The notes beneath the pieces are model-generated. The model did no database searches. It had not been told where the DNA came from and saw only the letters and a program-made list of their open reading frames with translations. Shown piece by piece: positions 1,397-19,855 of a DNA stretch of 25,760 nucleotides; within the stretch, counting starts at the first letter, position 1; every line of letters begins with the position of its first letter. Origin of the DNA: Candidatus Brocadiia bacterium (GTDB lineage: Bacteria; Planctomycetota; Brocadiia; SM23-32); assembly GCA_046538485.1 (NCBI GenBank), contig JBKHIT010000065.1, positions 1 through 25,760 of the forward strand. The letters run 5' to 3'. Both the position numbers and the translations under genes were made by a program.

Positions 1397-1476
1397 GTGG
1401 CATTTTACCCCTTGACGGACTCCGTTTACCCCCTATAATGCAGGATGAGCCGGGAAGCGAAGGGGCAAATTTCCCC
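1397..1476. promoter_or_regulatory. Two putative operator palindromes flanking the sigma70 promoter
   Basis: GTGGCATTTTACCCC (1397-1411, abutting the -35) and GGGGCAAATTTCCCC (1462-1476) both resemble the perfect palindrome GGGGCATTTTGCCCC at 7086-7100. Confidence 0.5.
1412..1439 (+). promoter_or_regulatory. sigma70 promoter of the H2-sensor operon
   Basis: TTGACG (1412-1417), 16-bp spacer, perfect TATAAT (1434-1439), about 70 bp upstream of the ATG at 1511. Confidence 0.75.
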
Positions 1477-1510
1477 GGCCGGCGGTTATATTAAGAGCGT
1501 TGGAGCGCAT

Positions 1511-3917: not shown

Positions 3918-3929
3918 GCGAGGATTTCA

Positions 3930-5216
3930 ATGCCGAGCAAGGTATCTCAATGGGAAGCGCAGGAAAGTGTCTGGGTGCAGATTATCCAGCAGATGGAGGA
4001 ATTGTACGCGCAGCTGGCGGATTCTCAAGCGGAAATTGAACGACACGCCGAAGAACTCAGAGATGCCAAAAAACTTGTCGATAATATCATCCGTAGCATG
4101 AGCGATGTGCTGATCGCAGTCGATTCCTCCGGGACCATCACTCTGGTGAACGAGGCCGTCGACCGGTTGTTCGGTTTTTCCGAGGAAGAGTTGGAAGGAG
4201 CAACTCTGGCAAAACTTCTTCCGGGGGAAGCGCAAAAGCAGAAATGGAGCTGGCCCCGGCTCAGCCGCAGGATCCGAAAAAGCGGTTCGTTGCGCGAGGT
4301 GGAAACGCGCTGGCAGGCCCGGCGCGGAAACCTCATACCCGTGGGGGTCACGGTGTCTGCCCTGAGGGACGAGTGGGAGGAAGTTGCCGGGGCGGTGCTT
4401 GTGGTTCGGGATCTGAGGGAGCGCAAACGCCGGATAGCTGAGGCCCAGGCCGCCACCGCCGCCGCCCGTGAAAAAGCCAGGGAACTTGAAGAAGCAAACG
4501 AAAACCTGAAACGACTTCAGGACGAACTCGTCCAGGCTGCCAAAATGAGTTCTCTTGGCCGGCTGGCGGCCGGGGTGGCTCATGAACTCAATAATCCCCT
4601 GGGCGGCATTATGCTCTACAGCGACCTGCTGCTGGAAGATATTCCAAAAGGGGATACCCGGCGCCCCACGGTCGAGAAGATCGCCGACCAGACCAGTCGT
4701 TGCCGCAGTATTGTGCAGGACCTGCTGGAATTCTCTCGACCTGCCCAGGCTGCCTCCCGACCCGTCGATATCAATTCCTTGCTTGAGGAAGCCGTGAATA
4801 TCCTCGAAGGACAACAGGTGTTCCACAATGTCTCAAGCCACTGGAAACTGGCCGAGGAAATCCCCTCGCTGACCGGGGACCCCGACCGGCTCCGGCAGAC
4901 GTTCCTTAACATAGTCCTGAATGCCGTCGAAGCGATGGAAGGAAAGGGAGAACTGTATCTCCGGACAAGCGTCAAGGATGGCAAAGTGACGATCGAAATC
5001 CAGGATTCAGGCTGTGGTCTCACCGAGGAGCAACAGGAACATCTTTTTGAGCCGTTCTACACGACAAAAGAGACGGGAACGGGGCTCGGATTACCAGTCA
5101 CCTACGGGATAATCGAACGACATGGCGGGGACATCGAAGTCGAAAGTGAAAAAGGTCAGGGTGCAACTTTTCGAATCAGCCTCCCCCTGACCGAGGAGGG
5201 CGAAAGGGATGAATGA
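3930..5216 (+). CDS. hupT: PAS-domain histidine kinase, HupT/HoxJ-like
   Basis: N-terminal VWVQIIQQMEELYAQL...SMSDVL typical of HupT/HoxJ; PAS domain; H-box LAAGVAHELNNP; N-box NIVLNA; DSGCG, FEPFYTTK, GTGLGL. Directly follows hupUV. Confidence 0.85.
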   Translation: MPSKVSQWEAQESVWVQIIQQMEELYAQLADSQAEIERHAEELRDAKKLVDNIIRSMSDVLIAVDSSGTITLVNEAVDRLFGFSEEELEGATLAKLLPGEAQKQKWSWPRLSRRIRKSGSLREVETRWQARRGNLIPVGVTVSALRDEWEEVAGAVLVVRDLRERKRRIAEAQAATAAAREKARELEEANENLKRLQDELVQAAKMSSLGRLAAGVAHELNNPLGGIMLYSDLLLEDIPKGDTRRPTVEKIADQTSRCRSIVQDLLEFSRPAQAASRPVDINSLLEEAVNILEGQQVFHNVSSHWKLAEEIPSLTGDPDRLRQTFLNIVLNAVEAMEGKGELYLRTSVKDGKVTIEIQDSGCGLTEEQQEHLFEPFYTTKETGTGLGLPVTYGIIERHGGDIEVESEKGQGATFRISLPLTEEGERDE

Positions 5217-6573
5217 AGGCGGCAGAGTGCTCGTTGTCGATGACGAAGAAGTTATCCGGGATAGCTGCCGGGAAGTGCTCGAGCGCGAGGGGCTCAGTGT
5301 GGCAGAAGCCGAAAATGCACCCGCAGCTCTCAACGTTCTCGACCAGGAGAGATGGGACGTGGTGCTTCTCGACCTGAAAATGCCCGGGGTCAGCGGTCTG
5401 GAAGCCCTTAAAAAAATCAAAAATCGTGATAGCGAACCCGTAGTAATTATCATTACCGGCTACCCGAGCGTCCAGACCGCCGTGGAAGCTATGAAATGGG
5501 GAGCGATGGATTATCTGACCAAACCGTTTGATTGCGAAAAGCTTACGGCGACGGTCGGTCGGGCACTGGCACGCCGAGACCTGGAGTTGAGCAGCTATCC
5601 CGGAGAAAGAGGCGCGGAAGATCAATCCCCGAGCGGCTCCATGCTTGTGGGGGAAACACCCCAGATCAAAGAGATCCGCTCCCTGATCAAACAGGTGGCG
5701 GAGACAGAAAGTACCATTCTGATTATGGGGGAGAGCGGGACCGGGAAAGAAGTGGTCGCGCGAATGCTCCACCAGCAAAGCGCCCGGAGCGATGAACCTT
5801 TCGTGGTCGTTGACTGTACAACGCTGGTAGACTCACTGGTGGAAAATGAGCTGTTCGGCCACGTCAAAGGGTCGTTCACCGGAGCCTCGGAAACGAGACG
5901 TGGGCGATTCGAGATGGCCGAGGGCGGCACGCTGTTTCTGGACGAAGTGGGCTCAATCGACAAAGGGTTGCAGTCGAAATTGCTGCGCGCAATTGAACGA
6001 GGAGAAATCGTGCGGGTCGGGTCGAACGAAGCTATCCACGTCGACGTCCGTGTCATCGCGGCCTCCAATACCGATCTTGCACGCGCCGTGGAGGATGGTG
6101 AGTTCCGGGAAGATCTCTACTATCGCCTGAGCGTCGTTCCGATTGTGCTCCCGCCGTTGCGGCAAAGAAAAGAAGATATCCCGCTGCTGGCTCGCCATTT
6201 TCTTGAACTTCATGCCGAAAACCGCAAACGAGATGTCCGTCGGATTAGCGATGACGCCATGGATGTTCTTAAAGCACACGATTGGCCCGGGAACGTGCGC
6301 GAACTCTCCAATGCCATCGAACGGGCCGTGGTGCTTGCGGAAGGGGAAGAGATCGTCCCCCAGCTGCTTCTCCATTACGGGTTTACCTACAGTCCCGACC
6401 GCGTTCGGAGTGACGCGGATGTGCCGACACTTGAAGAACTGGAAGAGCGTCACATCCGCCGCGTTCTCCGCCGCACCGGCGGCAACAAAACACGCGCGGC
6501 CGAACTTCTCGGAATCGACCGTAAGACGATCTACCGGAAACTTCAGCAGTTTGAAGAAGAGGAATCGGGCTGA
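5209..6573 (+). CDS. NtrC-family sigma54-dependent response regulator (REC-AAA+-HTH)
   Basis: REC (VVDDE, LDLKMP, KPF); Walker A GESGTGKE; GSFTGA; FLDEVG; FREDLYYRL; WPGNVREL; Fis-type HTH GGNKTRAAELLGIDRKTIYRKL. Overlaps the kinase stop. Confidence 0.95.
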   Translation: MNEGGRVLVVDDEEVIRDSCREVLEREGLSVAEAENAPAALNVLDQERWDVVLLDLKMPGVSGLEALKKIKNRDSEPVVIIITGYPSVQTAVEAMKWGAMDYLTKPFDCEKLTATVGRALARRDLELSSYPGERGAEDQSPSGSMLVGETPQIKEIRSLIKQVAETESTILIMGESGTGKEVVARMLHQQSARSDEPFVVVDCTTLVDSLVENELFGHVKGSFTGASETRRGRFEMAEGGTLFLDEVGSIDKGLQSKLLRAIERGEIVRVGSNEAIHVDVRVIAASNTDLARAVEDGEFREDLYYRLSVVPIVLPPLRQRKEDIPLLARHFLELHAENRKRDVRRISDDAMDVLKAHDWPGNVRELSNAIERAVVLAEGEEIVPQLLLHYGFTYSPDRVRSDADVPTLEELEERHIRRVLRRTGGNKTRAAELLGIDRKTIYRKLQQFEEEESG

Positions 6574-7359: not shown

Positions 7360-7375
7360 TGGCGTGGATTTTGCA
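7360..7375 (+). promoter_or_regulatory. sigma54 (-24/-12) promoter
   Basis: TGGCGTGGATTTTGCA: GG (7361-7362)-N10-GC (7373-7374), close to the TGGCAC-N5-TTGCW consensus, 70 bp upstream of the ATG at 7445 and downstream of a sigma54 activator gene. Confidence 0.75.
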
Positions 7376-7444: not shown

Positions 7445-7840
7445 ATGAGCGAAAATCGAAGGAAAATACTCGTCGTGGACGACGATGAGGACTATCAGGC
7501 CGCGGTAAGAAAGATTCTGGAGGACGCGGGCTACGAGGTCGTTTCTGCTTTCAATAAACAGGAGGGGCTGAAATCGCTGCACACCGATGATCCCGACCTT
7601 CTCATCCTGGACATCATGATGGATAAAAGCACGGACGGGTTCTTTTTCCTGTATGAGATGGGTGAAGAGGAAGGAATGGAGAGGCCCCCCGTGCTGTCGG
7701 TCAGCGTAATAGAGGAAGAAACAGGAATGGATTTCTCTCCGACTTCCGATGAGGATTATTTTCCCGCCGATGATTTTCTCAGCAAACCCGTGGATCCCGA
7801 AGAACTCATCTCCCGAGTCGAAAAGTTGCTGTCCCGGTGA
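7445..7840 (+). CDS. Single-domain response regulator (REC)
   Basis: ILVVDDDED, LILDIMM phosphoacceptor, FLSKPV; GAGGGG RBS. Confidence 0.92.
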   Translation: MSENRRKILVVDDDEDYQAAVRKILEDAGYEVVSAFNKQEGLKSLHTDDPDLLILDIMMDKSTDGFFFLYEMGEEEGMERPPVLSVSVIEEETGMDFSPTSDEDYFPADDFLSKPVDPEELISRVEKLLSR

Positions 7841-7880
7841 AATTGTGATCGGATTGCGCAGGAACAACGAGTGAACAAAT

Positions 7881-9065
7881 ATGCTGACGGTTCTTGAATC
7901 AATGGGCGATATAAACCAGTCAATCGAAACCCCGGTACAAACGGCGATCCCGCGCGACGAAGACAAGAAGCCGGGTCGTAAGGTACTTGTGGTGGATGAC
8001 GATCAGGCGATGCTGGATTCCTGCTCGGAGGTTCTCGAGCGAGAGGGATTCGATGTTATTGGATGTGGCAGCGGCGAAGAAGCTCTCAAGACCATGCGCG
8101 CCATCGGGCCAGATATTTTGATCATAGACCTTAAAATGCCGGGAATGTCGGGCGAAGAGTTTCTCAAGAAAGCCAAAGAGGTTGACTCCCAGGTGGTGGC
8201 CGTGGTGGTGACCGGCTACCCGGAACTCAGTTCCGCGGTGGAGGTTATGAAAGCGGGAGCGTCGGATTTTCTGCCGAAACCTTTTGGAGCGGAGGAGCTG
8301 CGTATCGTGACCCAACGCGCCATGGAGAAACGCGAACTGGCGCTTCAGGTCGCTGCAGGGCGGAGAGAAAAACAACGCATGCACGATAACTTCGCGGCGA
8401 TGATCTCCCATCAGCTCAAATCCCCCGCGGCCTGTGTGAAAGAATGCTTGGACGTGGTCAGACATTCCTTCAGCGATCGTATGCCGGAAAAGTGCACGGA
8501 GCTTCTGGACCGCGCCGCCGCGCGATCGCAGCTCCTGCTGGACCTCATGGACGACTGGCTCTCGCTGGCTCGTGTGGAATCCGGACAGCTCAAGGAATCG
8601 GATGAATGTGTCGACCTGGCCGAGGTTGTGGAAGAAGCTGTCAGCGCGGCTGAAGACGGCCACGAGGGGCCCGCAGCAGATGTTGCTATCGAATCCCGGG
8701 CAGAAGAGACTTCTGTCCGTGGCGATGCCGACGCGCTTCGGGAGATGGTCTTCAATCTTGTCGATAATGCCATGCGGTATACACCCGAAGAGGGGCGTGT
8801 GGAGGTGAGAACCGAAGCCGCCGGCGATGAAATTATTGTGGAGGTCGAGGACAACGGGCCCGGTATCCCGCGCGAAGAAGTCGAAGTGATTTTCGAGCCA
8901 TTTCACCGCGGCAAAAGAGGCCGTGGAAAACAGGGCACAGGGCTCGGTCTGGCGATTGTGAAACAGATTGCGCTCGCCCATGGCGGGCGAGTGGAAGTTG
9001 AAAGTGAGAACGGACGCGGGACCACCTTTGCCGTTCATTTACCCGCTGAGGGGAGTGGAGCATGA
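7881..9065 (+). CDS. Hybrid REC-histidine kinase without a sensor domain (start could be 7902)
   Basis: REC (VVDDD, IDLKMP, KPF); H-box ISHQLKSP; NLVDNAMRY; DNGPGI; GTGLGLAIV. Confidence 0.92.
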   Translation: MLTVLESMGDINQSIETPVQTAIPRDEDKKPGRKVLVVDDDQAMLDSCSEVLEREGFDVIGCGSGEEALKTMRAIGPDILIIDLKMPGMSGEEFLKKAKEVDSQVVAVVVTGYPELSSAVEVMKAGASDFLPKPFGAEELRIVTQRAMEKRELALQVAAGRREKQRMHDNFAAMISHQLKSPAACVKECLDVVRHSFSDRMPEKCTELLDRAAARSQLLLDLMDDWLSLARVESGQLKESDECVDLAEVVEEAVSAAEDGHEGPAADVAIESRAEETSVRGDADALREMVFNLVDNAMRYTPEEGRVEVRTEAAGDEIIVEVEDNGPGIPREEVEVIFEPFHRGKRGRGKQGTGLGLAIVKQIALAHGGRVEVESENGRGTTFAVHLPAEGSGA

Positions 9066-10132
9066 GCAATGGAGCAACTGACGCCCGTCTCGTTTCCCGG
9101 TCAGAACTGGGCACTTTGCTGACCGAAGCCCTGTCCGGGCGGCGCGTTTTTGGCTCAAGCTGTGAAAACGACGAAGTCCACCTGCGTCAAATAACCCCGG
9201 ATAGAGTGGATATCCCGCCTCACAGGAGTATCGAACCTCCCAAACCGCTCTTTTTCCGAACGCGGGAGAATCTGGGCAGTTATCTGGGAGACGACGGAAC
9301 GCCTGAATCGGAGCCGCGCGCCCTCGTCGGCGCCACGGCCTGCGACCTGGCTGCTTTAAAGATGCTGGACTGGGTCTTTCTGGAAGGCGACGTCGTCGAT
9401 CCCTATTACGAAACTCTGCGGGATAGCACGCTCGTGGTCTCGGTCGATTGCACCGAGCCCAAGGACGAGTGTTTCTGCACCTGGTTGGGGCGGAAACCGT
9501 ATCCCGAGGGAGCCTTTGACATCAATCTGTCTCCCATTTCAGATGGTTATGTGGTGCAGATCGGCAGCGAGCGTGGCCGTGAGGCGATGGGAGAAATTCT
9601 GGAAAAGTGTCCTGCCGCTTCCGCCGACCACCTCCAGCAGCGAGATCAGATGCGCGGGCAAGCCGAACAACACGTCGACGCGACGGTATCGGAGCTTGGG
9701 CTGCACATGACCGATGATTTCCAGGAACGGGTCCGAGAGAGCATTGATCTTGCCCTGTGGGAAGAGCTGGCCGAAAAATGCGTCGAGTGCGCGGCCTGCA
9801 ACTTCATCTGCCCGACCTGCCACTGTTTCTTGCTGGCAGATGTGGAAGCAAAGGAAGATTTTAAACGATTCAAGAACTGGGACGCCTGCCTCTACGAAGC
9901 TTTTGCCCTCGAAGCCAGTGGGGTGAACCCACGTCCCCGCCGGGCCGCCCGACTCCACGGACGTCTGGAAAAGAAATTCGATTTTCTGAAAACCAATACC
10001 GGCGACTGGGGGTGCACCGGTTGCGGGCGTTGCATCGAAGCCTGCGCCGGGGAAATTGATATGCGCGAAACCATACAGAAGATCACGGCCCCGGAAGGTC
10101 AAAAGAAAAGAACGGAGGCCGCGAATGCCTAG
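9062..10132 (+). CDS. 4Fe-4S dicluster protein, AsrA / sulfhydrogenase beta (HydB)-like
   Basis: ACDL, CFC, CVECAACNFICPTCHCF, WDAC, CTGCGRCIEAC. ATGA overlap with the upstream kinase. Confidence 0.88.
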   Translation: MSNGATDARLVSRSELGTLLTEALSGRRVFGSSCENDEVHLRQITPDRVDIPPHRSIEPPKPLFFRTRENLGSYLGDDGTPESEPRALVGATACDLAALKMLDWVFLEGDVVDPYYETLRDSTLVVSVDCTEPKDECFCTWLGRKPYPEGAFDINLSPISDGYVVQIGSERGREAMGEILEKCPAASADHLQQRDQMRGQAEQHVDATVSELGLHMTDDFQERVRESIDLALWEELAEKCVECAACNFICPTCHCFLLADVEAKEDFKRFKNWDACLYEAFALEASGVNPRPRRAARLHGRLEKKFDFLKTNTGDWGCTGCGRCIEACAGEIDMRETIQKITAPEGQKKRTEAANA

Positions 10133-10937
10133 CATTTACCATTGCGTGAAGACAGAACTGGCTGATGTGACGACGGAAACGGACAATATCAAGACGTTCC
10201 TGCTCCGGCCCGAGGTGCCCGTTTCTTTCAACGCCGGCCAGTTCGTGGAAGTTACCCTGCCCGGGCTGGGCGAGGCCCCCTTCACACCTTCCTCTTCACC
10301 CGCCGAAGATCAGGAACTCGCCGTCACGGTCATGAAAGCCGGGAAGGTGACATCGGCCATGCACGAGTTGGAACCCGGCGCCGAACTCGGCGTCAGAGGA
10401 CCTTATGGCAACATTTACCCGCTGGATGATTACGAAGGCCGCAACATTCTGATACTGGGAGGCGGGGTTGGACTGGCTCCGCTCAGGTCACTCCTCTACG
10501 CGCTGCTCGCCGATCGCGACCGGTTTGAGCGAATTGTCCTCTGTTACGGCGCCCGCACCCCGGACGATCTGGTCTACAAAGATCAGCTCCCTGAGTGGAG
10601 CGCGCGGGAGGATCTGGAAGTGCACCTGACCGTCGATAAGGCCGACGAAGATTGGGATGGTAAGGAAGGCGTGGTCACCGAAACGCTTGAGGACGTAACA
10701 ATCGATACAAGTGCAACAGTCGGCGTCGTCTGCGGCCCCCCGATCATGATGCGATTCGGCACGATAGCTCTCGAGAATAAGGGGTTTACGCCCGAAAACA
10801 TCTACCTGTCGATGGAACGGAATATGAGCTGCGGGCTCGGGAAATGCGGTCATTGCCGGATCGGCAATTACTACGTCTGCAAGGACGGCCCCGTTTTCAC
10901 GTATCAGCAACTCGAAGGAACACGCCACCTGTGGTGA
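10125..10937 (+). CDS. FAD/NAD(P)-binding [2Fe-2S] oxidoreductase, AsrB / sulfhydrogenase gamma (HydG)-like
   Basis: GQFVEV, GEAPFT, RGPYGN, GGGVGLAP, CGPPIMM, CGLGKCGHC...VCKDGPVF. ATG 10125 after GGAGG. Confidence 0.92.
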   Translation: MPSIYHCVKTELADVTTETDNIKTFLLRPEVPVSFNAGQFVEVTLPGLGEAPFTPSSSPAEDQELAVTVMKAGKVTSAMHELEPGAELGVRGPYGNIYPLDDYEGRNILILGGGVGLAPLRSLLYALLADRDRFERIVLCYGARTPDDLVYKDQLPEWSAREDLEVHLTVDKADEDWDGKEGVVTETLEDVTIDTSATVGVVCGPPIMMRFGTIALENKGFTPENIYLSMERNMSCGLGKCGHCRIGNYYVCKDGPVFTYQQLEGTRHLW

Positions 10938-10953
10938 GGTGAAAAACAGCGAA

Positions 10954-11445
10954 ATGGAGCAGAGACTTCAGATCAACCTCGATATCTGTCGCGAATGCGA
11001 GGATTGCACGGCGACATGCGGCTATCCCTACCACCATCCCAACAACGGTGTAGCTCGTCTTCGCGAACTGGCCGCCCAGGAACTCACCTGCCGCCAGTGT
11101 GAGGTGCAATCCTGCGTTCTGGCATGTCCCAATGATGCGCTGGAAAAGGACGAGGACGGGATATTGCGACGCTACAACATGCGCTGCACGGGATGTCTAT
11201 CGTGCAGCGTTGCATGTCCGTTCGGGACGCTGATTCCCGCGGCTCTTGAGTTTCGCGACAGTTTTTGCGACGCCTGCGCTGATCGGGGTGAGGGAGAACT
11301 TCCCGAATGCGCCAGAACGTGCCCGGAAGATGCTATCGTTATCGGCTCTGTGGATGAAGACGAAGAAAACGTGCACCTGCTGGGAGAGAACCTGGCGGTG
11401 CGTTCGCTCGTATGGCAGAAAAAGGAACCGGCGGAGAGCAAATGA
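10954..11445 (+). CDS. Multi-[4Fe-4S] electron-transfer protein (HycB/CooF/DmsB-like); alternative GTG start 10939
   Basis: Cys motifs CREC...C, CRQC...CVLACP, CTGCLSCSVACP, CDAC...CARTCP. Confidence 0.85.
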   Translation: MEQRLQINLDICRECEDCTATCGYPYHHPNNGVARLRELAAQELTCRQCEVQSCVLACPNDALEKDEDGILRRYNMRCTGCLSCSVACPFGTLIPAALEFRDSFCDACADRGEGELPECARTCPEDAIVIGSVDEDEENVHLLGENLAVRSLVWQKKEPAESK

Positions 11446-12407
11446 GCAGCGAGATCCCCATATACCTGTTTCGCTTCATCGTATTTCCCGGCCTGTTTTT
11501 CACCGCGGGGCTCGGGCTCCTGGTGAGCTGGGTCGACCGGAAGGTCACCGCCCGCATTCAGTGGCGGGTGGGGCCACCGTTGCTCCAGCCGTTCTACGAC
11601 CTGGTGAAACTGATGGGCAAAGAGACCATCGTCCCGGCAAATGGTTCACACCTGGCGTTTCTCGGTGCGCCACTGATCGGGCTGGCCGGCGTGACGCTCG
11701 CGGCGACACTCCTCGGCACGGCTGTTATCTATCCTCAGGCAGGGTTTACGGGCGATCTTGTTGTTTTGCTCTACCTGCTGGTTCTGCCGGCCCTGGCGGT
11801 GATCCTCGGGGGCGTGGCTTCGAACAGCCCCCTGGCCTCCGTGGGAGCCAGCCGGGAAATGAAACTGGTGCTCAGCTATGAACTGCCTCTGATCGCGATT
11901 ATTACCGTTCCCTTGATTCAGATGGCGCAGGCGGAGCCGGCGGTGGAAGGCGGGCTTCTGCGTCTCAGCACACTGCTGGGATACCAGACGTCGAACGGGG
12001 CGTTCGCCTGGAGCGTCTCGGGCGCAGTGGCCCTGGTGGCCGCCATCTTCTGTATGCAGGCAAAACTGGCCGCCGTGCCGTTCGATCAGGGGGAAGCCGA
12101 GACCGAGATTATGTCCGGGGCGTTCATCGAATATTCCGGCGCCCCGCTCGCGATATACAAACTGACGAAAGCGATGATGCTGGTGGTGATGCCGATGTTT
12201 CTGGTGGTCGTGTTGTGGGGCGGATTCGGTTCCAGCACCCTCTCGGTTCTGTTGGGGATCGGGAAATATCTGGTGCTGGTGGTGCTGTTCACGCTTCTTC
12301 GCAACACGAATCCCAGAGTTCGTATCGAACATGCGATGAAGTTTTTCTGGGGACCGGTCACCGGGCTGGCGTTCGTGGCAATTGTGCTTGCTATAGCGGG
12401 AGTCTGA
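11442..12407 (+). CDS. Complex I subunit 1 family membrane anchor (NuoH/MbhM/HycD-like)
   Basis: DRKVTARIQWRVGPPLLQPFYDLVKL, PFDQGEAETEI, EYSG, NPRVRIE; about 8 TM segments; ATGA overlap. Confidence 0.93.
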   Translation: MSSEIPIYLFRFIVFPGLFFTAGLGLLVSWVDRKVTARIQWRVGPPLLQPFYDLVKLMGKETIVPANGSHLAFLGAPLIGLAGVTLAATLLGTAVIYPQAGFTGDLVVLLYLLVLPALAVILGGVASNSPLASVGASREMKLVLSYELPLIAIITVPLIQMAQAEPAVEGGLLRLSTLLGYQTSNGAFAWSVSGAVALVAAIFCMQAKLAAVPFDQGEAETEIMSGAFIEYSGAPLAIYKLTKAMMLVVMPMFLVVVLWGGFGSSTLSVLLGIGKYLVLVVLFTLLRNTNPRVRIEHAMKFFWGPVTGLAFVAIVLAIAGV

Positions 12408-12409: not shown

Positions 12410-12856
12410 ATGGCGCTCGAAGGCCTGAAGATGAAAGCGCTCTCAAAATCGCCCTGGGTGTTCCATGTCAGCGCGGGATCCTGTAACAACTGCGACATCG
12501 AGATCCTGGACTGTCTTTGCCCGCGGTTCGACATCGAACGGTTCGGCGCTCTACTGGTGGGAAGCGTCCGGCACGCCGATGCTCTGCTTGTCACCGGCGG
12601 GATGAACAGAAAATCGGCAAAACGTGTGAAAAACCTCTATGAACAGGCCTCGAAACCCTGTCTGGTCATCGCAATCGGCACGTGTGCGTGTGGGCAGGGC
12701 ATATTCCGGGATAGCTACGCGTTGACGACCCCGCTGGATGAGGTGCTCCCGGACGCTGTCACGGCTTACGTGCCCGGATGCCCGCCAAAGCCGGAGGCCA
12801 TCATTCTGGGCGTGGTGAAGGCACTCGAGCAATTGAAGGGAAAAGAAAATGAATGA
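12410..12856 (+). CDS. Group 4 [NiFe] hydrogenase small subunit (NuoB/MbhJ-like)
   Basis: SPWVFH, GSCNNCDIE, RHADALLVTG, IGTCA, VPGCPPKPE. ATG 12410 directly follows the upstream stop. Confidence 0.93.
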   Translation: MALEGLKMKALSKSPWVFHVSAGSCNNCDIEILDCLCPRFDIERFGALLVGSVRHADALLVTGGMNRKSAKRVKNLYEQASKPCLVIAIGTCACGQGIFRDSYALTTPLDEVLPDAVTAYVPGCPPKPEAIILGVVKALEQLKGKENE

Positions 12857-13310
12857 AGGTTTCGAACAGATCATTCGCCAGAACCTCGAGGATATTGCTC
12901 GGGAAATCGAGGTCCACGCTCCGGAGCGGATCTACGTGGAAGTGGGGCCTGATGATCTTCTGGATGCTGCCGGCCGGCTTTTCCAGAAACTGGGGGCCCG
13001 CTACGCCATCGCCTCGGGCACGCATATCGAGAACGGCTTTGAAGTTCTCCACCATTTCGCGTTCGACGGGGAGGGAGGCCTGGTCAGTCTGCGGGTGCGG
13101 ACCGAAGAGGATCCCCCCGAGTTCGACTCCCTCGCCCCGATGATCAAAGGAGCCCGTTTCATCGAGCGGGAGATCCATGATCTGCTCGGGATCCGGTTCC
13201 GGGGTCATCCAAATCTCACGCGGCTTATCCTGCCGGAAGACTGGCCGGACGATGTCTATCCGCTCCGACAGGGCAAGCCCTGGGAAGGAAAGGTGAAAAA
13301 ACAGATATGA
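12849..13310 (+). CDS. NuoC/MbhK-like subunit
   Basis: EREIHDLLGIRFRGHPNLTRLILPEDWP...YPLR. Confidence 0.92.
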   Translation: MNEGFEQIIRQNLEDIAREIEVHAPERIYVEVGPDDLLDAAGRLFQKLGARYAIASGTHIENGFEVLHHFAFDGEGGLVSLRVRTEEDPPEFDSLAPMIKGARFIEREIHDLLGIRFRGHPNLTRLILPEDWPDDVYPLRQGKPWEGKVKKQI

Positions 13311-14494
13311 CCACATCCACCATACCAATAGGGCCGTTTCACCCGCTCCAGGAGGAACCCGAGCTGTTCCGACTGCACGTGGATGGGGAGACGGTCGTTG
13401 ATGTGGACGTTGAGATCGGATGGAACCATCGCGGCATCGAAAAGGTCTCCGAGGGCAAGACTTTTGATCAGGTGCCTTTTCTGGTGGAAAGAATCTGCGG
13501 GATCTGTTCGACTTCCCACCCGATCGCCTATGTGCAGGCGGTGGAGGATGCCGGGCACCTCGAGGTGCCCGAACGGGCGCTCTACATCCGCAGCATCATC
13601 GCGGAACTGGAGCGTCTGCACAGCCATCTGCTATGGGTGGGTTTGGCCGGCCATTTCCTCGGTTACAACACGGTTTTCATGTGGGCCTGGAAATACCGTG
13701 AGCCCGTTCTCGATATCTGCGAAGAACTGACGGGCAACCGGAACAATTACGCCATGATCAAAGTCGGCGGAGTCCGACGGGATCTGGACGAGTCGAAGTT
13801 TCCCGGAGTTCTGGGTCGTCTTGACGAACTCGAGAAGAAAGTCAAGATGCTCGCCGGGGCAGTTACCGATGATCCTGTCCTGCACGCCCGTCTCAAAGGA
13901 GTGGGCGTTCTCACCGAAGAGGCGGCGAGAGATTACGGGGCGCTCGGGCCCACCGTACGCGGCAGTGGCATTCCCTGGGACGTGCGAGCCGACGAACCAT
14001 ACGCAGCCTATGATCTCGTCGATTGGGATATCATAACGGCCCCTTCCTGCGATGTTTACGGGCGTGCTGTCGTGCGGGTGCTGGAGTGCTTCGAGTCGAT
14101 CGAGATCATCCGCCAGTGCTTCGAAAACATGCCGGAGGGCGATATTGATGCGAATGTGACCGAGATACCGCCCGGGGAAGGCATCGGTCACGCCGAAGCT
14201 CCCCGGGGTGAGACGTTCCATTACGTGCGCTCCGACGGGACCAATCAGCCCGTCCGCCACAAAGCCCGGGCGCCGACATACATGAATCTGCCGACCTGCT
14301 ACGAGACCGTGGTGGGCGAGTCGGTGACGGATGCCACAATTATCCTCGCATCGGTCGATCCGTGTTATAGTTGCACCGAGCGGATGGGTGTTGTCTACGA
14401 TGCTTCGAGCGGCGAGCGACTTCTTGATGGCAAAGAACTCGTGAGACTTTCGCAAGAGAAAACCGAGGCCCTACGAAGGGAGATGGGGAGATGA
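13307..14494 (+). CDS. Group 4 membrane-bound [NiFe] hydrogenase large subunit (MbhL-like, NuoD family)
   Basis: PIGPFHP, HRGIEK, intact L1 ERICGICS and L2 DPCYSCTER (four Ni-ligating Cys), EAPRGE, 36-aa C-terminal extension. Confidence 0.93.
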   Translation: MTTSTIPIGPFHPLQEEPELFRLHVDGETVVDVDVEIGWNHRGIEKVSEGKTFDQVPFLVERICGICSTSHPIAYVQAVEDAGHLEVPERALYIRSIIAELERLHSHLLWVGLAGHFLGYNTVFMWAWKYREPVLDICEELTGNRNNYAMIKVGGVRRDLDESKFPGVLGRLDELEKKVKMLAGAVTDDPVLHARLKGVGVLTEEAARDYGALGPTVRGSGIPWDVRADEPYAAYDLVDWDIITAPSCDVYGRAVVRVLECFESIEIIRQCFENMPEGDIDANVTEIPPGEGIGHAEAPRGETFHYVRSDGTNQPVRHKARAPTYMNLPTCYETVVGESVTDATIILASVDPCYSCTERMGVVYDASSGERLLDGKELVRLSQEKTEALRREMGR

Positions 14495-16329
14495 ACGCTG
14501 AGACTGCAATGCACCTCGCCGTAACCGTACCCTTCGCAGCGGGGCTTCTGTGCATTCTGATGCCCCGTCGGGTGAGCCTGTTCCACAAGGTTCTTGCGAT
14601 TTTGACCTGCGCCGCCGTGCTCTCAGGGACCGTTGTGCTCTACGGCATGGAAGATGTGGTGAAAGCACCGGAATGGGCCGGCGAACGTGTTCTTCTCGGG
14701 CTGGACGGGCTCAGTTCCATGATCCTCGTGGCGGCCGCCGGCTTTTCATTCCTCATGGTCCTTTACTCCGTCGGCTTTTTGTCGGACGAAGAGGTGAATC
14801 CGAGGCCGTTTTACGCGAATATCCTGTGGGCTGTGGGGTGTGCCTGTGCAACAATCCTCGCCCGGGACCTGCTGGTTCTGCTATTTTTCTGGGGATTGAT
14901 GGGGATTCCATTTTTCCTTCTGATCAATCTCGGCCCGAAGGACCCCGGTGCGGCCGCAAAGAAAACTTTGATTGTGCTGGGGGGAAGCGATTCGCTTTTG
15001 ATTCTGGGGATTGCGATTATCCCGATGCTCTCGGGGAGTTTCGACATCCTTCAGGATCCCCTTCCACTGCAGGGAATATCGGTGGTGGCCTGCCTTTGCC
15101 TGGCTGTGGCGGCCTTTGCGAAAGCGGGAGCCATGCCGTTTCATTCGTGGGTCCCGGACGCGGCGGAGAAAGCCCCCGTGCCCGCTGTTGCGTTGTTACC
15201 GGCTTCGCTCGATAAACTGCTCGGGATCTATCTTTTTGCCCGGATCTGCCTGGATATGTTCCGGATAAATGACGAAATGAGATCTCTGTTTATGCTGGTG
15301 GGCGCTTTCACGGTGATGGCGGCGGTGATGGCAGCTTTGCAGCAGCATAACCTGCGTCGTCTGCTCGGTTACCACGCGGTCAGCCAGGTTGGCTACATGG
15401 TGCTGGGAATCGCCAGCGGCACGGCCCTCGGGGTGGTCGGAGGACTGTTCCATATGCTGAATAATGCAATCTACAAATCCTGTCTGTTCCTCGGAGCCGG
15501 TTCGGCTGAGAAACGATCCGGCACGGGAGAGCTGGATGAGATGGGGGGGATGGCGCGGGCGATGCCCGTGACGTTCGTGTGTTTCTTAATTGCAGCATTG
15601 GCTATTTCCGGCGTTCCCCCGCTGAACGGGTTCGTCTCCAAATGGATGATCTACGGCGGGTTGGTGGATCAAGCGGGAGAAGGCGGATATCTGTGGGTGA
15701 TTGGCCTGATTGCGGCAATGTTCGGCAGCGCCCTGACTCTGGCGAGTTTCGTCAAGGTGCTTCATGCCGTCTTTCTCGGTCGGTCGCGCGAGGGAGCGAG
15801 CCATGAAGGGCCGCTTCCCAACACGGCCATGGTGCTGCCCATGGTGGTGCTGGCGCTCGTTTGCGTTGCATTCGGCGTTATGGCGTTCGTTCTGCCGGTC
15901 CAGAACATCCTCCTCCCGGCAGTCCCCGAAGCCCTGCGTCCTGAGATGGCCGGGGCCGCCTGGGATCCGGGTCTGGGGACCATCCTTCTGGTGGTGGCGC
16001 TTCTGTTAGGAGCGGGCGTGTACCTCCTCGGACGCGGTTTCAAGGTTCGCGAGGACGAATCTTACATGGGAGGCGAAATCGGAGAACGAGCGGCACCCTA
16101 TCGTTTCAGTGGCGTGGATTTCTATCAGACAATTTCTTCAAAAGTTCCCTCCCTGAAAACACTTTATAAGGATGCTGAGGAAGGCTGGTACGACATTTAC
16201 CGGCTCGGCCAGAGGTTCATGGAATGGATCGCGGTTCCTCTGAAGAGCTTTCATTCGGGATTGTTGCTGACGTATGTGGCGTGGTGTGTGCTGGGCCTTA
16301 TCGGCTTGTTGTGGCTGTTCCTGCATTAG
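14491..16329 (+). CDS. Large antiporter-like membrane subunit (NuoL/MrpA type)
   Basis: KAGAMPFHSWVPDA, LLGYHAVSQVGYM, HMLNNAIYKSCLFL, GVPPLNGFVSKW, plus a C-terminal lateral-helix/last-TM-like region (HSGLLLTYVAW). Confidence 0.9.
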   Translation: MNAETAMHLAVTVPFAAGLLCILMPRRVSLFHKVLAILTCAAVLSGTVVLYGMEDVVKAPEWAGERVLLGLDGLSSMILVAAAGFSFLMVLYSVGFLSDEEVNPRPFYANILWAVGCACATILARDLLVLLFFWGLMGIPFFLLINLGPKDPGAAAKKTLIVLGGSDSLLILGIAIIPMLSGSFDILQDPLPLQGISVVACLCLAVAAFAKAGAMPFHSWVPDAAEKAPVPAVALLPASLDKLLGIYLFARICLDMFRINDEMRSLFMLVGAFTVMAAVMAALQQHNLRRLLGYHAVSQVGYMVLGIASGTALGVVGGLFHMLNNAIYKSCLFLGAGSAEKRSGTGELDEMGGMARAMPVTFVCFLIAALAISGVPPLNGFVSKWMIYGGLVDQAGEGGYLWVIGLIAAMFGSALTLASFVKVLHAVFLGRSREGASHEGPLPNTAMVLPMVVLALVCVAFGVMAFVLPVQNILLPAVPEALRPEMAGAAWDPGLGTILLVVALLLGAGVYLLGRGFKVREDESYMGGEIGERAAPYRFSGVDFYQTISSKVPSLKTLYKDAEEGWYDIYRLGQRFMEWIAVPLKSFHSGLLLTYVAWCVLGLIGLLWLFLH

Positions 16330-16341: not shown

Positions 16342-16905
16342 ATGGTAAATCTGCTGATTCTGCTGCTGGTTTTCATGATCATCGCGGCGGTGATCGCGCT
16401 GTGGACCGAAGATTTGCTCTCGAGTGTCATTGCCGTCGGCGCCGTGGGTTTTGGCAGCAGTGTGGCATTTCTATTGCTCAGTGCGCCCGACCTGGCGATC
16501 ACCCAGATTGTGGTGGAAGTGCTGACGCTGGTGCTGTTGATCCGCGCGACGGTAGGCAGAGATGTCAAAACCACCTCGGGTTCCCGCGATGTTTTCGGAC
16601 TGGCGGTCTCGGGGGCTCTCGTGTTGATACTGCTCGTGTTCGCGGTTCAGACAGCCCAGTCTCTGCCCGAATTCGGCCAACGACCTCCGGTAGCGAGAGA
16701 AGCAGCCCCGGCCGCGCAGTATCTGACCGATGGATTGGATAAAACCGGATCGGCAAACATCGTAACCGCCGTCTTACTGGACTATCGGGCCTATGACACT
16801 CTGGGGGAAGCCACGGTGCTTTTTGCGGCGGTCGTCGGCGCAATGACGTTGCTGCGCAGGAGAAGCCGGAAAGAAGAAACTCCCGCTGAGGAGGAACAAA
16901 CATGA
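16342..16905 (+). CDS. MbhD/MbhE-like fusion (DUF4040 plus MrpA C-terminal/MnhB-related domain)
   Basis: APDLAITQIVVE and NIVTAVLLDYRAYDTLGEATVL. Confidence 0.88.
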   Translation: MVNLLILLLVFMIIAAVIALWTEDLLSSVIAVGAVGFGSSVAFLLLSAPDLAITQIVVEVLTLVLLIRATVGRDVKTTSGSRDVFGLAVSGALVLILLVFAVQTAQSLPEFGQRPPVAREAAPAAQYLTDGLDKTGSANIVTAVLLDYRAYDTLGEATVLFAAVVGAMTLLRRRSRKEETPAEEEQT

Positions 16906-17375: not shown

Positions 17376-17378
17376 AAC

Positions 17379-19815: not shown

Positions 19816-19855
19816 AAATCCTGCTTCGGCACGCAAAAAAACAGGCTGGACTATC

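What the first reader, a model, noticed from the sequence alone, without database searches (positions are those of the whole stretch)
9062..11445. Soluble-hydrogenase-type NAD(P)H module built into an Mrp-hydrogenase operon
Seen: AsrA/HydB-like, AsrB/HydG-like and multi-Fe-S genes tightly linked directly ahead of the nuoH-like gene. No AsrC and no group 3b hydrogenase subunits are in the window. Known: Pyrococcus MBH uses ferredoxin, complex I uses NuoEFG, and HydBG normally serve soluble group 3b enzymes. Inference: an ion-gradient-coupled NAD(P)H:H+ oxidoreductase with an alternative input module. It could run as reverse electron transport to H2 or as energy-conserving H2 to NAD(P)+.
Basis: partly seen in the sequence, partly recalled or inferred. 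Interest (0 to 1): 0.75.

Follow-up and report, generated by a model that had tools for sequence, protein, structure and literature searches.

The report
NAD(P)H module on membrane hydrogenase
Three genes resembling the NAD(P)H-handling half of a soluble hydrogenase are a conserved part of a membrane-bound, ion-pumping hydrogenase operon, a type already seen in genome surveys but never tested at the bench.

Summary
Window 9062-11445 holds three tightly coupled genes: a homologue of P. furiosus soluble hydrogenase I subunit beta, a homologue of subunit gamma (FAD, NAD(P), [2Fe-2S]), and a 16-cysteine HycB-like polyferredoxin. They sit directly ahead of 13 genes for an Mrp-linked group 4 [NiFe]-hydrogenase whose large subunit keeps both Ni-Fe motifs.

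The linkage is not a chance adjacency:
- In 80 related genome loci, the HydB proteins next to such hydrogenase genes form one clade of 38 loci plus the window.
- No locus in that clade shows another context.
- The clade is sister to the group 3b type.
- Module and hydrogenase core co-diverge.

A Rex (NADH-sensing) gene or operator precedes the operon in 12 relatives. In the window the operon instead lies beside an H2-sensor hydrogenase, a histidine kinase and a sigma-54 activator.

Activity, direction and ion coupling are untested.

The cluster type is already in print:
- "Mbh-Mrp-oxidoreductase type" (2019, 2020).
- Soluble-hydrogenase beta/gamma homologues on group 4b clusters (2026).

The window is therefore a new member of an uncharacterised but known kind. 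Interest is moderate.

The parts
9062..10132 (+). HydB/ShyB/AsrA-like iron-sulfur subunit (356 aa), homologue of soluble hydrogenase I subunit beta
   Evidence: Pfam Fer4_22 4.9e-26. PDB 9nez_B 4.1e-34, with the cysteine motifs shared. Fifteen cysteines are invariant among 29 membrane-linked homologues. The start ATG overlaps the stop of the upstream kinase gene (ATGA).
10125..10937 (+). HydG/ShyC/AsrB-like FAD, NAD(P) and [2Fe-2S] subunit (270 aa), homologue of subunit gamma
   Evidence: Pfam NAD_binding_1 2.9e-19, FAD_binding_6 and DHODB_Fe-S_bind. PDB 9nez_C 2.4e-56 over the full length. The motifs EAPFTPSSSP, GGGVGLAP and CGLGKCGHC...C are conserved in homologues.
10939..11445 (+). HycB/CooF/DmsB-type polyferredoxin with 16 Cys (four [4Fe-4S] motifs); the likely start is ATG 10954
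   Evidence: Pfam Fer4_11 1.6e-10. PDB hits include HycB3/HycB4 (7qv7) and FHL subunit 2 (7z0s_B). Alignment A3 shows the two central cluster motifs invariant in 29 sequences.
11442..12407 (+). NuoH/HycD/MbhM-like membrane anchor
   Evidence: Pfam NADHdh 5.5e-60. Its ATGA start overlaps the stop of the previous gene.
12410..12856 (+). NuoB/MbhJ-like hydrogenase small subunit
   Evidence: Pfam Oxidored_q6 3.9e-25. NCBIfam NuoB subfamily 117.5 bits against a cut-off of 116.
12849..13310 (+). NuoC/MbhK-like subunit
   Evidence: Pfam Complex1_30kDa 1.6e-23.
13307..14494 (+). Group 4 [NiFe]-hydrogenase large subunit (395 aa) with RICGICSTSH and DPCYSCTER motifs and a 33-aa C-terminal tail
   Evidence: Sequence read. 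PDB MbhL 6cfw_L 2.3e-89 and HycE 7z0s_E 4.3e-89.
14491..16329 (+). First antiporter-like subunit (612 aa; NuoL / MrpA N-terminal / MbsH'-like)
   Evidence: Pfam Proton_antipo_M 1.2e-55. PDB 6cfw_H 2.5e-41, 6z16_A 5.5e-40, 6u8y_X 4.1e-33.
16342..17729 (+). MbhD/E (16342-16905), MnhB (16902-17375) and MnhC/NuoK-like (17379-17729) small membrane subunits
   Evidence: Pfam MbhD, MbhE, MnhB and Oxidored_q2.
17738..19318 (+). MrpD/MbhH-like second antiporter-like subunit (526 aa)
   Evidence: PDB 6cfw_H 2.5e-83. Pfam Proton_antipo_M 5.3e-67.
19303..20459 (+). MnhE (19303-19815), MrpF (19856-20122) and MnhG (20079-20459; start uncertain)
   Evidence: Pfam MNHE 7.8e-40, MrpF_PhaF 4.2e-18, PhaG_MnhG_YufB 7.8e-26.
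20456..21052 (+). HycF/NuoI-like 2x[4Fe-4S] subunit (198 aa), last gene of the operon
   Evidence: The best solved relative is E. coli HycF, 7z0s_F 5.5e-18, ahead of MbhN, 6cfw_N 1.2e-15. The top NCBIfam hit is the formate hydrogenlyase iron-sulfur subunit, 1.2e-28.
7445..9065 (+). Single-domain response regulator (7445-7840) and hybrid receiver-histidine kinase (7881-9065), the latter translationally coupled to hydB
   Evidence: Pfam Response_reg, HisKA and HATPase_c. ATGA overlap at 9062-9065.
7360..7375 (+). Candidate sigma-54 promoter TGGCGTGGATTTTGCA, 70 nt upstream of the response-regulator start codon
   Evidence: The pattern TGGC-N7-TTGCW gives 2 hits in the window against 0.5 expected; 7 of 100 shuffles reach 2. 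The consensus is recalled. This is suggestive only.
1445..6573 (+). Putative H2-sensing unit: cytoplasmic [NiFe] small subunit (1445-2509) and large subunit (2481-3917), PAS histidine kinase (3930-5216) and sigma-54 activator (5209-6573). That it regulates the operon is inferred.
   Evidence: Pfam results. The large subunit ends at DPCLYCSVH with no C-terminal extension. Its best PDB match is a 'Hydrogenase-2, large subunit', 7uus_A 5.3e-84; that this entry is the group 2a Huc enzyme is recalled. The small subunit has no twin-arginine motif.

Best explanation
The three genes encode the cytoplasmic electron input/output module of one large membrane complex. That complex is an Mrp-linked group 4 [NiFe]-hydrogenase with a formate-hydrogenlyase-style peripheral arm. 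The formate dehydrogenase of that arm is replaced by the beta-gamma half of a soluble NAD(P)-dependent hydrogenase.

Inferred electron path: NAD(P)H <-> FAD and [2Fe-2S] (HydG-like) <-> [4Fe-4S] clusters (HydB-like) <-> four [4Fe-4S] (HycB-like) <-> two [4Fe-4S] (HycF-like) <-> one [4Fe-4S] (NuoB-like) <-> Ni-Fe site. This path is coupled to H+/Na+ movement through a membrane arm with two antiporter-like subunits plus the MrpB, C, E, F and G homologues.

The reaction NAD(P)H + H+ <-> NAD(P)+ + H2 lies close to equilibrium, with an E0' gap of about 94 mV (established values). The complex is therefore expected to be reversible:
- With an ion gradient as input it vents NAD(P)H electrons as H2. 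This direction is the likely one in the fermentative relatives under Rex control.
- At high H2 it makes NAD(P)H and exports ions. This direction is plausible in this organism, where the operon lies next to an H2 sensor.

Shown here: gene content, cofactor motifs, conserved synteny, an exclusive clade, co-divergence, and Rex genes and operators in relatives. Inferred: physical assembly, the order of the wire, the substrate, ion coupling and direction.
For: 1. All cofactor motifs are present and the beta and gamma homologues match solved soluble hydrogenase I over their full length.

2. The large subunit has both Ni-Fe motifs. So do all 26 complete large subunits of the related loci; 2 more are cut by contig ends and keep the first motif.

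3. Of the 80 loci found with a HydB profile, 33 carry hydB-hydG-(hycB)-nuoH-nuoB-nuoC-nuoD in the same order. Of those, 21 continue into Mrp genes.

4. In the HydB tree (79 rows) these proteins form one clade of 39 rows with SH-aLRT 99. The clade holds the window, the 33 loci, 2 loci that end after hycB and 3 that end after hydG. No locus in it shows another context. Its sister is the clade of HydB proteins next to group 3b hydrogenases (6 rows).

5. Pairwise distances of HydB and the large subunit correlate at r = 0.84. That is as strong as large subunit against NuoH (0.81). In each case 0 of 999 permutations reach the observed value (28 loci).

6. The last gene is closest to HycF, the subunit that docks HycB in E. 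coli FHL. The third gene is HycB-like.

7. A rex gene lies directly upstream of hydB in 6 of the 27 loci whose upstream ORFs were scanned. Only 11 sites in the 1.19 Mb of all 80 loci match the Rex operator with at most 1 mismatch. Seven of them lie within 150 nt upstream of hydB in membrane-linked loci, and one lies upstream of a rex-hydB pair. The operator consensus is given in the abstract of PMC2883068.

8. PntA transhydrogenase genes are neighbours in 2 loci, and hyp maturation genes in 5.

9. PMC13582414 (section 16 read) reports AlphaFold models in which soluble-hydrogenase beta/gamma homologues join the Fe-S network of related group 4b complexes.
Against: - No activity, assembly or ion-transport data exist for any member. 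I found none in six literature searches.
- NAD(P)H-to-H2 transfer is endergonic under standard conditions, so a pumping complex seems mismatched unless it runs in reverse or at low H2.
- Rex also controls ferredoxin-dependent enzymes in some bacteria (recalled). Rex control therefore does not prove NADH is the substrate.
- The window has neither a rex gene nor a Rex operator.
- The HydB and HydG homologues score below every NCBIfam equivalog cut-off, so function cannot be transferred by name.
- NADH versus NADPH preference could not be read from the sequence.
- Four related loci (L006, L012, L018, L075) show no Mrp genes downstream. Ion coupling through Mrp is thus not universal in the clade.
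- MAG papers that describe relatives assume ferredoxin as the donor (PMC9324843, PMC8542988).
Confidence: 0.6

Rival explanations
1. Confurcating or bifurcating membrane hydrogenase. The complex takes electrons from reduced ferredoxin (docking on the HycB- or HycF-like subunit) and from NAD(P)H together to make H2. Alternatively it splits H2 electrons between the two carriers. The Mrp arm tunes the energetics.
For: PMC13582414 (section 16) proposes bifurcation or confurcation for the related clusters that also carry an Fdh-like protein, on the basis of a branched Fe-S network in AlphaFold models. The HycB-like protein carries four cluster motifs, more than a simple wire needs. Relatives such as MBH use ferredoxin (PMC8165549).
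Against: The window and 27 of the 33 linked loci lack the third, Fdh-like branch. Soluble hydrogenase I, the closest solved relative of the module, is described as a reversible NADPH-oxidising enzyme, not a bifurcating one; I saw only the title of Xiao et al. 2025, as cited in PMC13582414. No bifurcation-type flavoprotein (NuoF, HdrA or EtfAB type) is encoded in the operon.
Confidence: 0.17
2. Sulfur-linked complex. The HydB/HydG-like pair acts as a sulfur, polysulfide or sulfite-type reductase site, as in 'sulfhydrogenase' and AsrAB. The complex would then pass electrons from H2 or the membrane arm to a sulfur compound rather than to NAD(P)+.
For: The closest named families are the sulfhydrogenase beta/gamma subunits and AsrA/AsrB. 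P. furiosus hydrogenase was described as a sulfur reductase (Ma et al. 1993, seen only as a reference in PMC2678158 and PMC9324843). The related MBS complex reduces sulfane sulfur (PMC8165549).
Against: No AsrC (sirohaem) subunit is in the window. The large subunit keeps the Ni-Fe ligands, unlike MBS/Mbx. The FAD and NAD(P) motifs of HydG are fully conserved. Regulation in relatives is by the NADH sensor Rex. No sulfur-metabolism genes were conserved among the neighbours scanned.
Confidence: 0.08
3. Independent soluble enzyme. The three proteins do not bind the membrane complex. They serve a partner encoded elsewhere (AsrC, HdrA or a group 3b hydrogenase) and are merely co-transcribed.
For: HydB/HydG-like pairs from other lineages do sit next to group 3b hydrogenases (5 loci), HdrD/HdrA-like genes (5 loci), AFOR, FrhB-like and GltD-like genes.
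Against: The window protein belongs to the clade in which every locus with readable downstream sequence (35 of 38) continues into hycB and, in 33, into hydrogenase genes. That clade is separate from the 3b-linked and Hdr-linked lineages. Module and core co-diverge. Start and stop codons overlap on both sides of the module.
Confidence: 0.04

Closest known systems
'Mbh-Mrp-oxidoreductase type' group 4 [NiFe]-hydrogenase clusters from genome surveys: Saganbacteria RX5A (PMC6349859), Elusimicrobia lineages (10.1101/765248), and group 4b clusters with SHI-beta/gamma homologues (PMC13582414)
   Same: The same building blocks occur together: a group 4 hydrogenase core, Mrp antiporter-like subunits, a CooF/HycB-type ferredoxin, and AsrA/AsrB (= SHI beta/gamma) homologues. 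An Elusimicrobia locus (L031) falls in the same HydB clade as the window.
   Different: The Saganbacteria cluster and the 2026 clusters also carry a molybdopterin or Fdh-like protein. In my sample that protein was confirmed by Pfam in 3 loci and is likely in 3 more. The window lacks it. Those papers left the function unknown or proposed bifurcation. None reports the Rex link, the exclusive HydB clade, or an H2-sensor neighbour.
P. furiosus soluble hydrogenase I (group 3b; PDB 9nez)
   Same: The HydB- and HydG-like proteins align over nearly full length with subunits beta and gamma and share all cysteine and FAD/NAD(P) motifs.
   Different: There are no group 3b alpha and delta subunits. The partner is a membrane-bound group 4 enzyme reached through an extra HycB-like subunit. 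The HydB clade is sister to the 3b-linked clade, not inside it. NCBIfam scores fall far below the equivalog cut-offs.
P. furiosus MBH (PDB 6cfw; group 4d, ferredoxin-dependent)
   Same: The large subunit (2.3e-89), the MbhH homologue (2.5e-83) and the MbhD/E, MnhB, C, E, F and G homologues match.
   Different: The window has a second antiporter-like subunit, a HycF-like rather than MbhN-like terminal Fe-S subunit, and a three-protein flavin/Fe-S module that MBH lacks.
E. coli formate hydrogenlyase (PDB 7z0s) and the archaeal Fdh-Mrp-Mbh complexes (group 4a/4b)
   Same: The HycE-like large subunit (4.3e-89), the HycF-like subunit and the HycB-like polyferredoxin adaptor match.
   Different: No formate dehydrogenase is present; the HydB/HydG-like pair takes its place. 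The membrane arm is Mrp-type.
SudA-linked MBX/FHL-like complexes of Desulfurococcaceae (PMC3035292)
   Same: An earlier proposal of an NADPH dehydrogenase replacing FdhA on an MBH/FHL-type complex.
   Different: The flavoprotein there is different (SudA/GltD type), the organisms are archaeal, and two of the three species lack the Mrp genes (passages read).

Membership tests
Soluble hydrogenase I / sulfhydrogenase subunit beta (HydB/ShyB) and AsrA family | Fer4_22 domain and full-length similarity to the solved beta subunit, with its cysteine motifs | tested here: met
   Pfam 4.9e-26. 9nez_B 4.1e-34, aligned 48-345 against 45-339, cysteines aligned.
Soluble hydrogenase I / sulfhydrogenase subunit beta (HydB/ShyB) and AsrA family | Score above the NCBIfam equivalog cut-off (ShyB 690, HydB 750, AsrA 323) | tested here: not met
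   Scores are 150.3, 132.5 and 116.5 bits. The protein is a relative, not an equivalog.
Soluble hydrogenase I subunit gamma (HydG/ShyC) / AsrB | FAD-binding, NAD(P)-binding and C-terminal [2Fe-2S] motifs | tested here: met
   Three Pfam domains. Motifs conserved. 9nez_C 2.4e-56.
Soluble hydrogenase I subunit gamma (HydG/ShyC) / AsrB | Score above the NCBIfam equivalog cut-off (AsrB 288.6, HydG 650, ShyC 600) | tested here: not met
   Scores are 227.5, 194.3 and 184 bits.
Group 3b soluble [NiFe]-hydrogenase | Alpha and delta (large and small) 3b subunits encoded with beta and gamma | tested here: not met
   None in the window. HydB proteins linked to 3b enzymes form a separate clade.
Anaerobic sulfite reductase AsrABC | AsrC sirohaem subunit next to AsrA/AsrB | tested here: not met
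   No NIR_SIR-type domain among the 27 ORFs. Elsewhere in the genome this is not testable.
Group 4 membrane-bound [NiFe]-hydrogenase | Large subunit with the N-terminal RxCGxCxxxH and C-terminal DPCxxCxxR motifs (motif forms recalled) | tested here: met
   RICGICSTSH and DPCYSCTER. The same motifs occur in 26 of 26 complete relatives.
Group 4 membrane-bound [NiFe]-hydrogenase | NuoB-, NuoC-, NuoH- and NuoI-like partners | tested here: met
   Pfam and NCBIfam.
Mrp-linked subtype (MBH/MBS-like membrane arm) | Homologues of MrpA/D, B, C, E, F and G in the operon | tested here: met
   Pfam MbhD, MbhE, MnhB, Oxidored_q2, Proton_antipo_M (twice), MNHE, MrpF and MnhG.
HydDB subgroup (4b, 4d or 4g) | Placement by the HydDB classifier | not testable with these tools
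   A MAG whose contig is locus L007 is reported to have a 'Group 4g Mbh + Mrp' (PMC9324843). Clusters with SHI beta/gamma homologues are called group 4b in PMC13582414. I could not run HydDB.
Formate hydrogenlyase-type complexes | Catalytic formate dehydrogenase subunit | tested here: not met
   Absent from the window. A degenerate molybdopterin protein is present in L011, L012 and L075.
Respiratory complex I | NuoE/F/G N-module and a quinone site instead of Ni-Fe | tested here: not met
   No NuoEFG domains. Ni-Fe ligands present.
H2-sensing regulatory hydrogenase (group 2b-like), for genes 1445-3917 | Large subunit without a C-terminal extension, small subunit without a Tat signal, adjacent histidine kinase and response regulator (criteria recalled) | tested here: met
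   The large subunit ends at ...DPCLYCSVH. The small subunit has no RR motif. A PAS kinase and a sigma-54 activator follow. Sensor activity itself is not testable.

The most novel reading that the evidence does not exclude
A single membrane complex, widespread in uncultivated anaerobes (Omnitrophota, Planctomycetota, Kiritimatiellia, Auribacterota, Cloacimonadota, Bacteroidales, Thermotogota, Nitrospirota, Atribacterota, Elusimicrobiota), uses the ion gradient to push NAD(P)H electrons uphill onto protons. Fermenters could then vent NADH as H2 with no ferredoxin and no confurcating [FeFe]-hydrogenase. The same machine run backwards would be an energy-conserving H2:NAD(P)+ oxidoreductase. In this organism it would be switched by a dedicated H2 sensor through a sigma-54 promoter.
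Probability: 0.35. Interest if true: 0.8.

Novelty: new member of a known kind. Interest (0 to 1): 0.5.

Why it matters
How strict fermenters reoxidise NADH to H2 is usually explained in one of two ways: confurcating [FeFe]-hydrogenases, or Rnf working with a ferredoxin hydrogenase. A direct, ion-coupled NAD(P)H:H+ oxidoreductase would be a third solution. It would also be a close functional analogue of complex I, with protons in place of quinone.

MAG studies currently label these enzymes as ferredoxin-dependent 'Mbh' (PMC9324843, PMC8542988). The conserved flavoprotein module and the Rex control suggest that this label, and the metabolic models built on it, may be wrong for many phyla.

The clade defined here, its Rex operators and the H2-sensor variant give concrete handles for a first biochemical test.

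Tried and rejected
- **Complex prediction.** The HycB-like (alignment A3) and HydB-like (alignment A2) proteins gave no verdict. The three runs scored 0.00, 0.52 and 0.24 against a mark of 0.32, and the controls were not run. This counts neither for nor against binding.
- **NADH versus NADPH preference.** I tried to read it from the HydG segment after the GGGxGxAP strand. The position varies (D, E, S, A, K, Q, G) with no clear rule, so I make no call.
- **Loose sigma-54 consensus.** TGGCAC-N5-TTGC with up to 2 mismatches gave 17 hits against 23 expected, which is uninformative. The tighter pattern gave 2 hits against 0.5 expected, which is only suggestive.
- **Sigma-70 promoter and terminator scan.** The counts were no different from shuffled sequence.
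- **Unassigned ORFs.** The small ORFs 6606-6890 and 6887-7159, the long minus-strand ORF 6680-7966 and other unassigned ORFs gave no Pfam or NCBIfam hit.
- **Rex operator in the window.** None was found with up to 3 mismatches near hydB or in 6500-7500.
- **Papers that led nowhere.** The Mesotoga preprint and the Kiritimatiellia preprint were not relevant. Xiao et al. 2025 on the hydrogenase I structure is not held.
- **Not checked.** The supplementary figures of PMC13582414, PMC6349859 and 10.1101/765248 show the published cluster maps and models, and I did not see them. They may already show the Fdh-less form.

Full report
**What is there**

All recognisable genes of the window lie on the + strand. 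The finding's coordinates, 9062-11445, span exactly three genes.

- The first gene (9062-10132, 356 aa) has a Fer4_22 domain (E 4.9e-26). It aligns over residues 48-345 with subunit beta of the solved P. furiosus soluble hydrogenase I (9nez_B, E 4.1e-34), and the cysteine motifs are shared.
- The second gene starts at ATG 10125, which overlaps the upstream stop codon. It runs to 10937 (270 aa). It has FAD-binding, NAD(P)-binding and C-terminal [2Fe-2S] domains and aligns end to end with subunit gamma (9nez_C, E 2.4e-56).
- The third gene (10939 or, more likely, ATG 10954, to 11445) is a HycB/CooF/DmsB-type polyferredoxin with 16 cysteines in four cluster motifs.

NCBIfam places the first two nearest to ShyB/HydB/AsrA and AsrB/HydG/ShyC. 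All scores fall below the equivalog cut-offs. They are relatives, not equivalogs.

**What follows the three genes**

Thirteen genes follow directly, with overlapping or abutting start and stop codons:
- a NuoH-like anchor;
- a NuoB-like small subunit;
- a NuoC-like subunit;
- a 395-aa large subunit;
- a 612-aa antiporter-like subunit;
- MbhD/E, MnhB and MnhC;
- a 526-aa MrpD/MbhH-like subunit;
- MnhE, MrpF and MnhG;
- a NuoI-like subunit.

The large subunit carries RICGICSTSH and DPCYSCTER, so it is a real [NiFe]-hydrogenase and not an Ehr/Mbx-type relative. Its best solved relatives are MbhL (6cfw_L, 2.3e-89) and HycE (7z0s_E, 4.3e-89).

The 526-aa protein is the MbhH counterpart (2.5e-83). 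The 612-aa protein is a second antiporter-like subunit. The membrane arm therefore resembles Mrp and MBS (two such subunits) more than MBH (one); the subunit numbers come from PMC8165549.

The terminal Fe-S subunit is closest to E. coli HycF (7z0s_F, 5.5e-18; MbhN 1.2e-15). The peripheral arm thus looks like that of formate hydrogenlyase (HycB-HycF-small subunit-large subunit), with the HydB/HydG-like pair where the formate dehydrogenase would be.

**Is the linkage more than chance?**

A profile of 35 HydB-like proteins retrieved 80 loci from one genome per species. I scored the window's proteins against the six-frame ORFs of those loci. The contexts were:

| Context downstream of hydB-hydG | Loci |
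|---|---|
| hydB-hydG-(hycB)-nuoH-nuoB-nuoC-nuoD in the window's order | 33 |
| A different group 4-like cluster (L070) | 1 |
| Contig ends just after hycB | 2 |
| Contig ends after hydG | 9 |
| Group 3b hydrogenase subunits | 5 |
| HdrD/HdrA-like genes | 5 |
| Other neighbours (AFOR, FrhB-like, GltD-like and unrelated genes) | 25 |

Of the 33 loci with the window's order:
- 21 continue into Mrp-type genes.
- 8 are cut by contig ends before that point.
- 4 (L006, L012, L018, L075) have further sequence but no Mrp hits.

A maximum-likelihood tree of 79 HydB rows was built; two 'other' loci with short matches were left out. In it all 33 loci, the 2 that end after hycB, 3 that end after hydG, and the window fall into one clade of 39 rows with SH-aLRT 99. 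No member of that clade has a different context. Its sister group is the 3b-linked clade (6 rows, support 96; the joint node has 91). The Hdr-linked and other lineages lie across the root.

The nearest relative of the window protein is from a Brocadiia MAG (L001, 47% identity).

Among 28 loci with all five proteins complete, pairwise distances correlate as follows (0 of 999 permutations reach the observed value in each case):
- HydB against the large subunit: r = 0.84.
- HydB against HycB: r = 0.83.
- Large subunit against NuoH: r = 0.81.

There is no species-tree control. This shows co-inheritance of module and core as one unit. It does not show contact.

All 26 complete large subunits in the clade keep both Ni-Fe motifs.

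**Variants**

Seven loci carry extra sequence between hydG and hycB:
- In L011, L012 and L075 it is a molybdopterin-oxidoreductase-like protein.
- In L026 it is a 531-aa ORF with no Pfam hit.
- In L024 and L035 it is a 1.5-1.7 kb gap holding only fragmentary ORFs.
- In L006 it is a TPR protein.

These Fdh-like forms branch at the base of the clade. They correspond to what is in print (see "What is already known" below).

**Clues to substrate and direction**

In the relatives, the gene directly upstream of hydB is rex in 6 of the 27 loci whose upstream ORFs I scanned: L017, L022, L025 and L031 on the same strand, and L053 and L079 divergent. All six score above the NCBIfam cut-offs.

I then searched all 80 loci (1.19 Mb) for the Rex operator TTGTGAA-N4-TTCACAA with at most one mismatch. 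The consensus is given in the abstract of PMC2883068. Only 11 sites turned up:

| Location of the site | Sites | Loci |
|---|---|---|
| Within 150 nt upstream of the hydB start, membrane-linked locus | 7 | L012, L014, L017, L023, L024, L025, L075 |
| Upstream of a rex-hydB pair | 1 | L031 |
| About 650 nt upstream of hydB | 1 | L007 |
| Just upstream of a 3b-type hydB | 1 | L059 |
| Elsewhere | 1 | L014, position 877 |

Rex releases its targets when NADH rises (abstracts of PMC2883068 and PMC6391272). This fits an NADH-disposing, H2-evolving role in those fermenters. PntA transhydrogenase genes are neighbours in L016 and L079, and hyp maturation genes in five loci.

The window differs. It has no rex gene and no operator. 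Instead hydB is translationally coupled to a hybrid receiver-kinase gene, which is preceded by a single-domain response regulator.

About 1 kb further upstream lies a four-gene unit:
- A cytoplasmic [NiFe] small subunit with no twin-arginine motif.
- A 478-aa large subunit that ends at the final histidine of DPCLYCSVH with no C-terminal extension. Its best solved relative is 7uus_A, deposited as 'Hydrogenase-2, large subunit' (E 5.3e-84); that this entry is the group 2a Huc enzyme is recalled.
- A PAS histidine kinase.
- A sigma-54 activator.

By criteria I recall for HoxBC/HupUV, this is the anatomy of an H2 sensor.

A sigma-54-like element, TGGCGTGGATTTTGCA, sits at 7360-7375, 70 nt before the response-regulator start codon, in the only long gene-free stretch. 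The tight pattern has 2 hits in the window against 0.5 expected, and 7 of 100 shuffles do as well. This is suggestive only.

The inferred chain is H2 sensor, kinase, activator, promoter, operon. It would make this copy H2-responsive and so point to the H2-oxidising direction, or at least to control by H2.

**How it most likely works**

NAD(P)H binds the HydG-like flavoprotein. Electrons pass through its [2Fe-2S] cluster, then the HydB-like clusters (15 invariant cysteines), the four HycB-like clusters, the two HycF-like clusters and the NuoB-like cluster, and reach the Ni-Fe site. The anchor and the Mrp-type arm couple this to H+/Na+ movement.

NAD(P)H to H2 is uphill by about 18 kJ/mol under standard conditions and about level at very low H2 (from the standard potentials). 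The complex should therefore be reversible: gradient-driven H2 evolution, or H2-driven NAD(P)+ reduction with ion export.

Everything past gene content, motifs, synteny, phylogeny and regulatory sites is inference.

I put 0.6 on this reading. The rivals are:
- A mixed ferredoxin plus NAD(P)H confurcating mode, 0.17.
- A sulfur-reducing role of the module, 0.08.
- An independent soluble enzyme, 0.04.

The remainder is left for something not foreseen.

**What is already known**

- PMC6349859 (passages read) describes an 'enigmatic' Saganbacteria group 4 cluster with Mrp-like subunits, a molybdopterin oxidoreductase, cooF, asrA and asrB.
- 10.1101/765248 (passages read) names a 'Mbh-Mrp-oxidoreductase type' in Elusimicrobia and states that its function is unknown.
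- PMC13582414 (section 16 read) reports that about half of the group 4b clusters it studied carry an Fdh-like protein without the Mo ligand, together with SHI-gamma and SHI-beta homologues. It models a three-branched Fe-S network and suggests bifurcation among H2, NADPH and an unknown substrate.
- PMC3035292 (passages read) earlier proposed a SudA-type NADPH dehydrogenase on MBX/FHL-like complexes of Desulfurococcaceae.
- PMC9324843 and PMC8542988 (passages read) describe MAGs of Ca. Tritonobacter lacicola and Ca. Tenebribacter mawsonii, species from which contigs were retrieved here as L007 and L056. They assign these a 'Group 4g Mbh + Mrp' that oxidises ferredoxin. The passages I read do not mention the flavoprotein module.
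- HydDB lists group 4g as of undetermined role (PMC5037454).

I found no biochemical study of any member in six searches. The library does not hold most subscription journals.

**Verdict**

It remains untested and is not new as an idea.

What this analysis adds:
- The module-bearing enzymes form one dedicated HydB lineage, sister to the 3b type.
- The Fdh-less form seen in the window is the commoner one in the sample.
- Relatives are under Rex control.
- This copy sits next to an H2 sensor.

I file it as a new member of a kind known only from genome surveys, of moderate interest.

Noticed in passing
window 1445-6573: A putative H2-sensing unit. It comprises a cytoplasmic [NiFe] small subunit without a Tat motif, a 478-aa large subunit that ends at the mature C-terminal histidine (no extension to cleave), a PAS histidine kinase and a sigma-54 activator. 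It lies next to a group 4 rather than an uptake hydrogenase operon.
   Followed up: partly
window 7360-7404: A sigma-54-like -24/-12 element (7360-7375) is followed at once by a perfect 10-bp inverted repeat, CAATACCTGT/ACAGGTATTG (7374-7383 and 7395-7404). The repeat could be an operator or a 5' hairpin.
   Followed up: partly
window 6573-7445: About 870 bp with no recognisable gene. The ORFs 6606-6890 and 6887-7159 and the long minus-strand ORF 6680-7966 have no Pfam or NCBIfam hit.
   Followed up: partly
window 21541-25320: A 1259-aa single-chain restriction-modification enzyme of the Eco57I/MmeI type. It has a TaqI_C specificity domain and weak similarity to the BREX PglX methyltransferases. 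It follows the operon after a 490-bp gap.
   Followed up: no
L017 1254-1904, L022 9151-9867, L025 7738-8415, L031 9084-9809, L053 9109-9750 (-), L079 8243-8848 (-): rex genes lie directly upstream of hydB in six related loci. Near-perfect Rex operators precede hydB in further loci that have no adjacent rex: L012, L014, L023, L024 and L075.
   Followed up: yes
L070 9899-21053; L052 9818-13975: A HydB/HydG pair from a different lineage, outside the main clade, sits ahead of another group 4-like cluster in a KSB1 MAG (L070). That cluster holds a HycI protease, three antiporter-like genes, NuoC, a large subunit with DPCFSCTER, NuoH and NuoI. The Acidobacteriota sister locus L052 shows an MrpD-like gene after hydG. 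This may be a second, independent recruitment.
   Followed up: partly
L011 10946-12790, L012 1980-3722, L075 12048-13589 (also L026 3041-4633): Degenerate molybdopterin-oxidoreductase (Fdh-like) genes are inserted between hydG and hycB. These loci branch at the base of the membrane-linked HydB clade. That pattern hints that the module was added to a formate-hydrogenlyase-type ancestor and the Fdh was later lost.
   Followed up: partly
L003 9424-9879, L054 9500-9904: A small NIL-domain plus 2x[4Fe-4S] protein is encoded immediately upstream of hydB in two Omnitrophota loci. Its role is unknown.
   Followed up: no
L016 6769-8258 (-), L079 6881-8038 (-): Genes for the membrane transhydrogenase (PntA, and in L016 the PntB 4TM region) lie near the operon in two loci. 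This is another link to pyridine-nucleotide balance.
   Followed up: no
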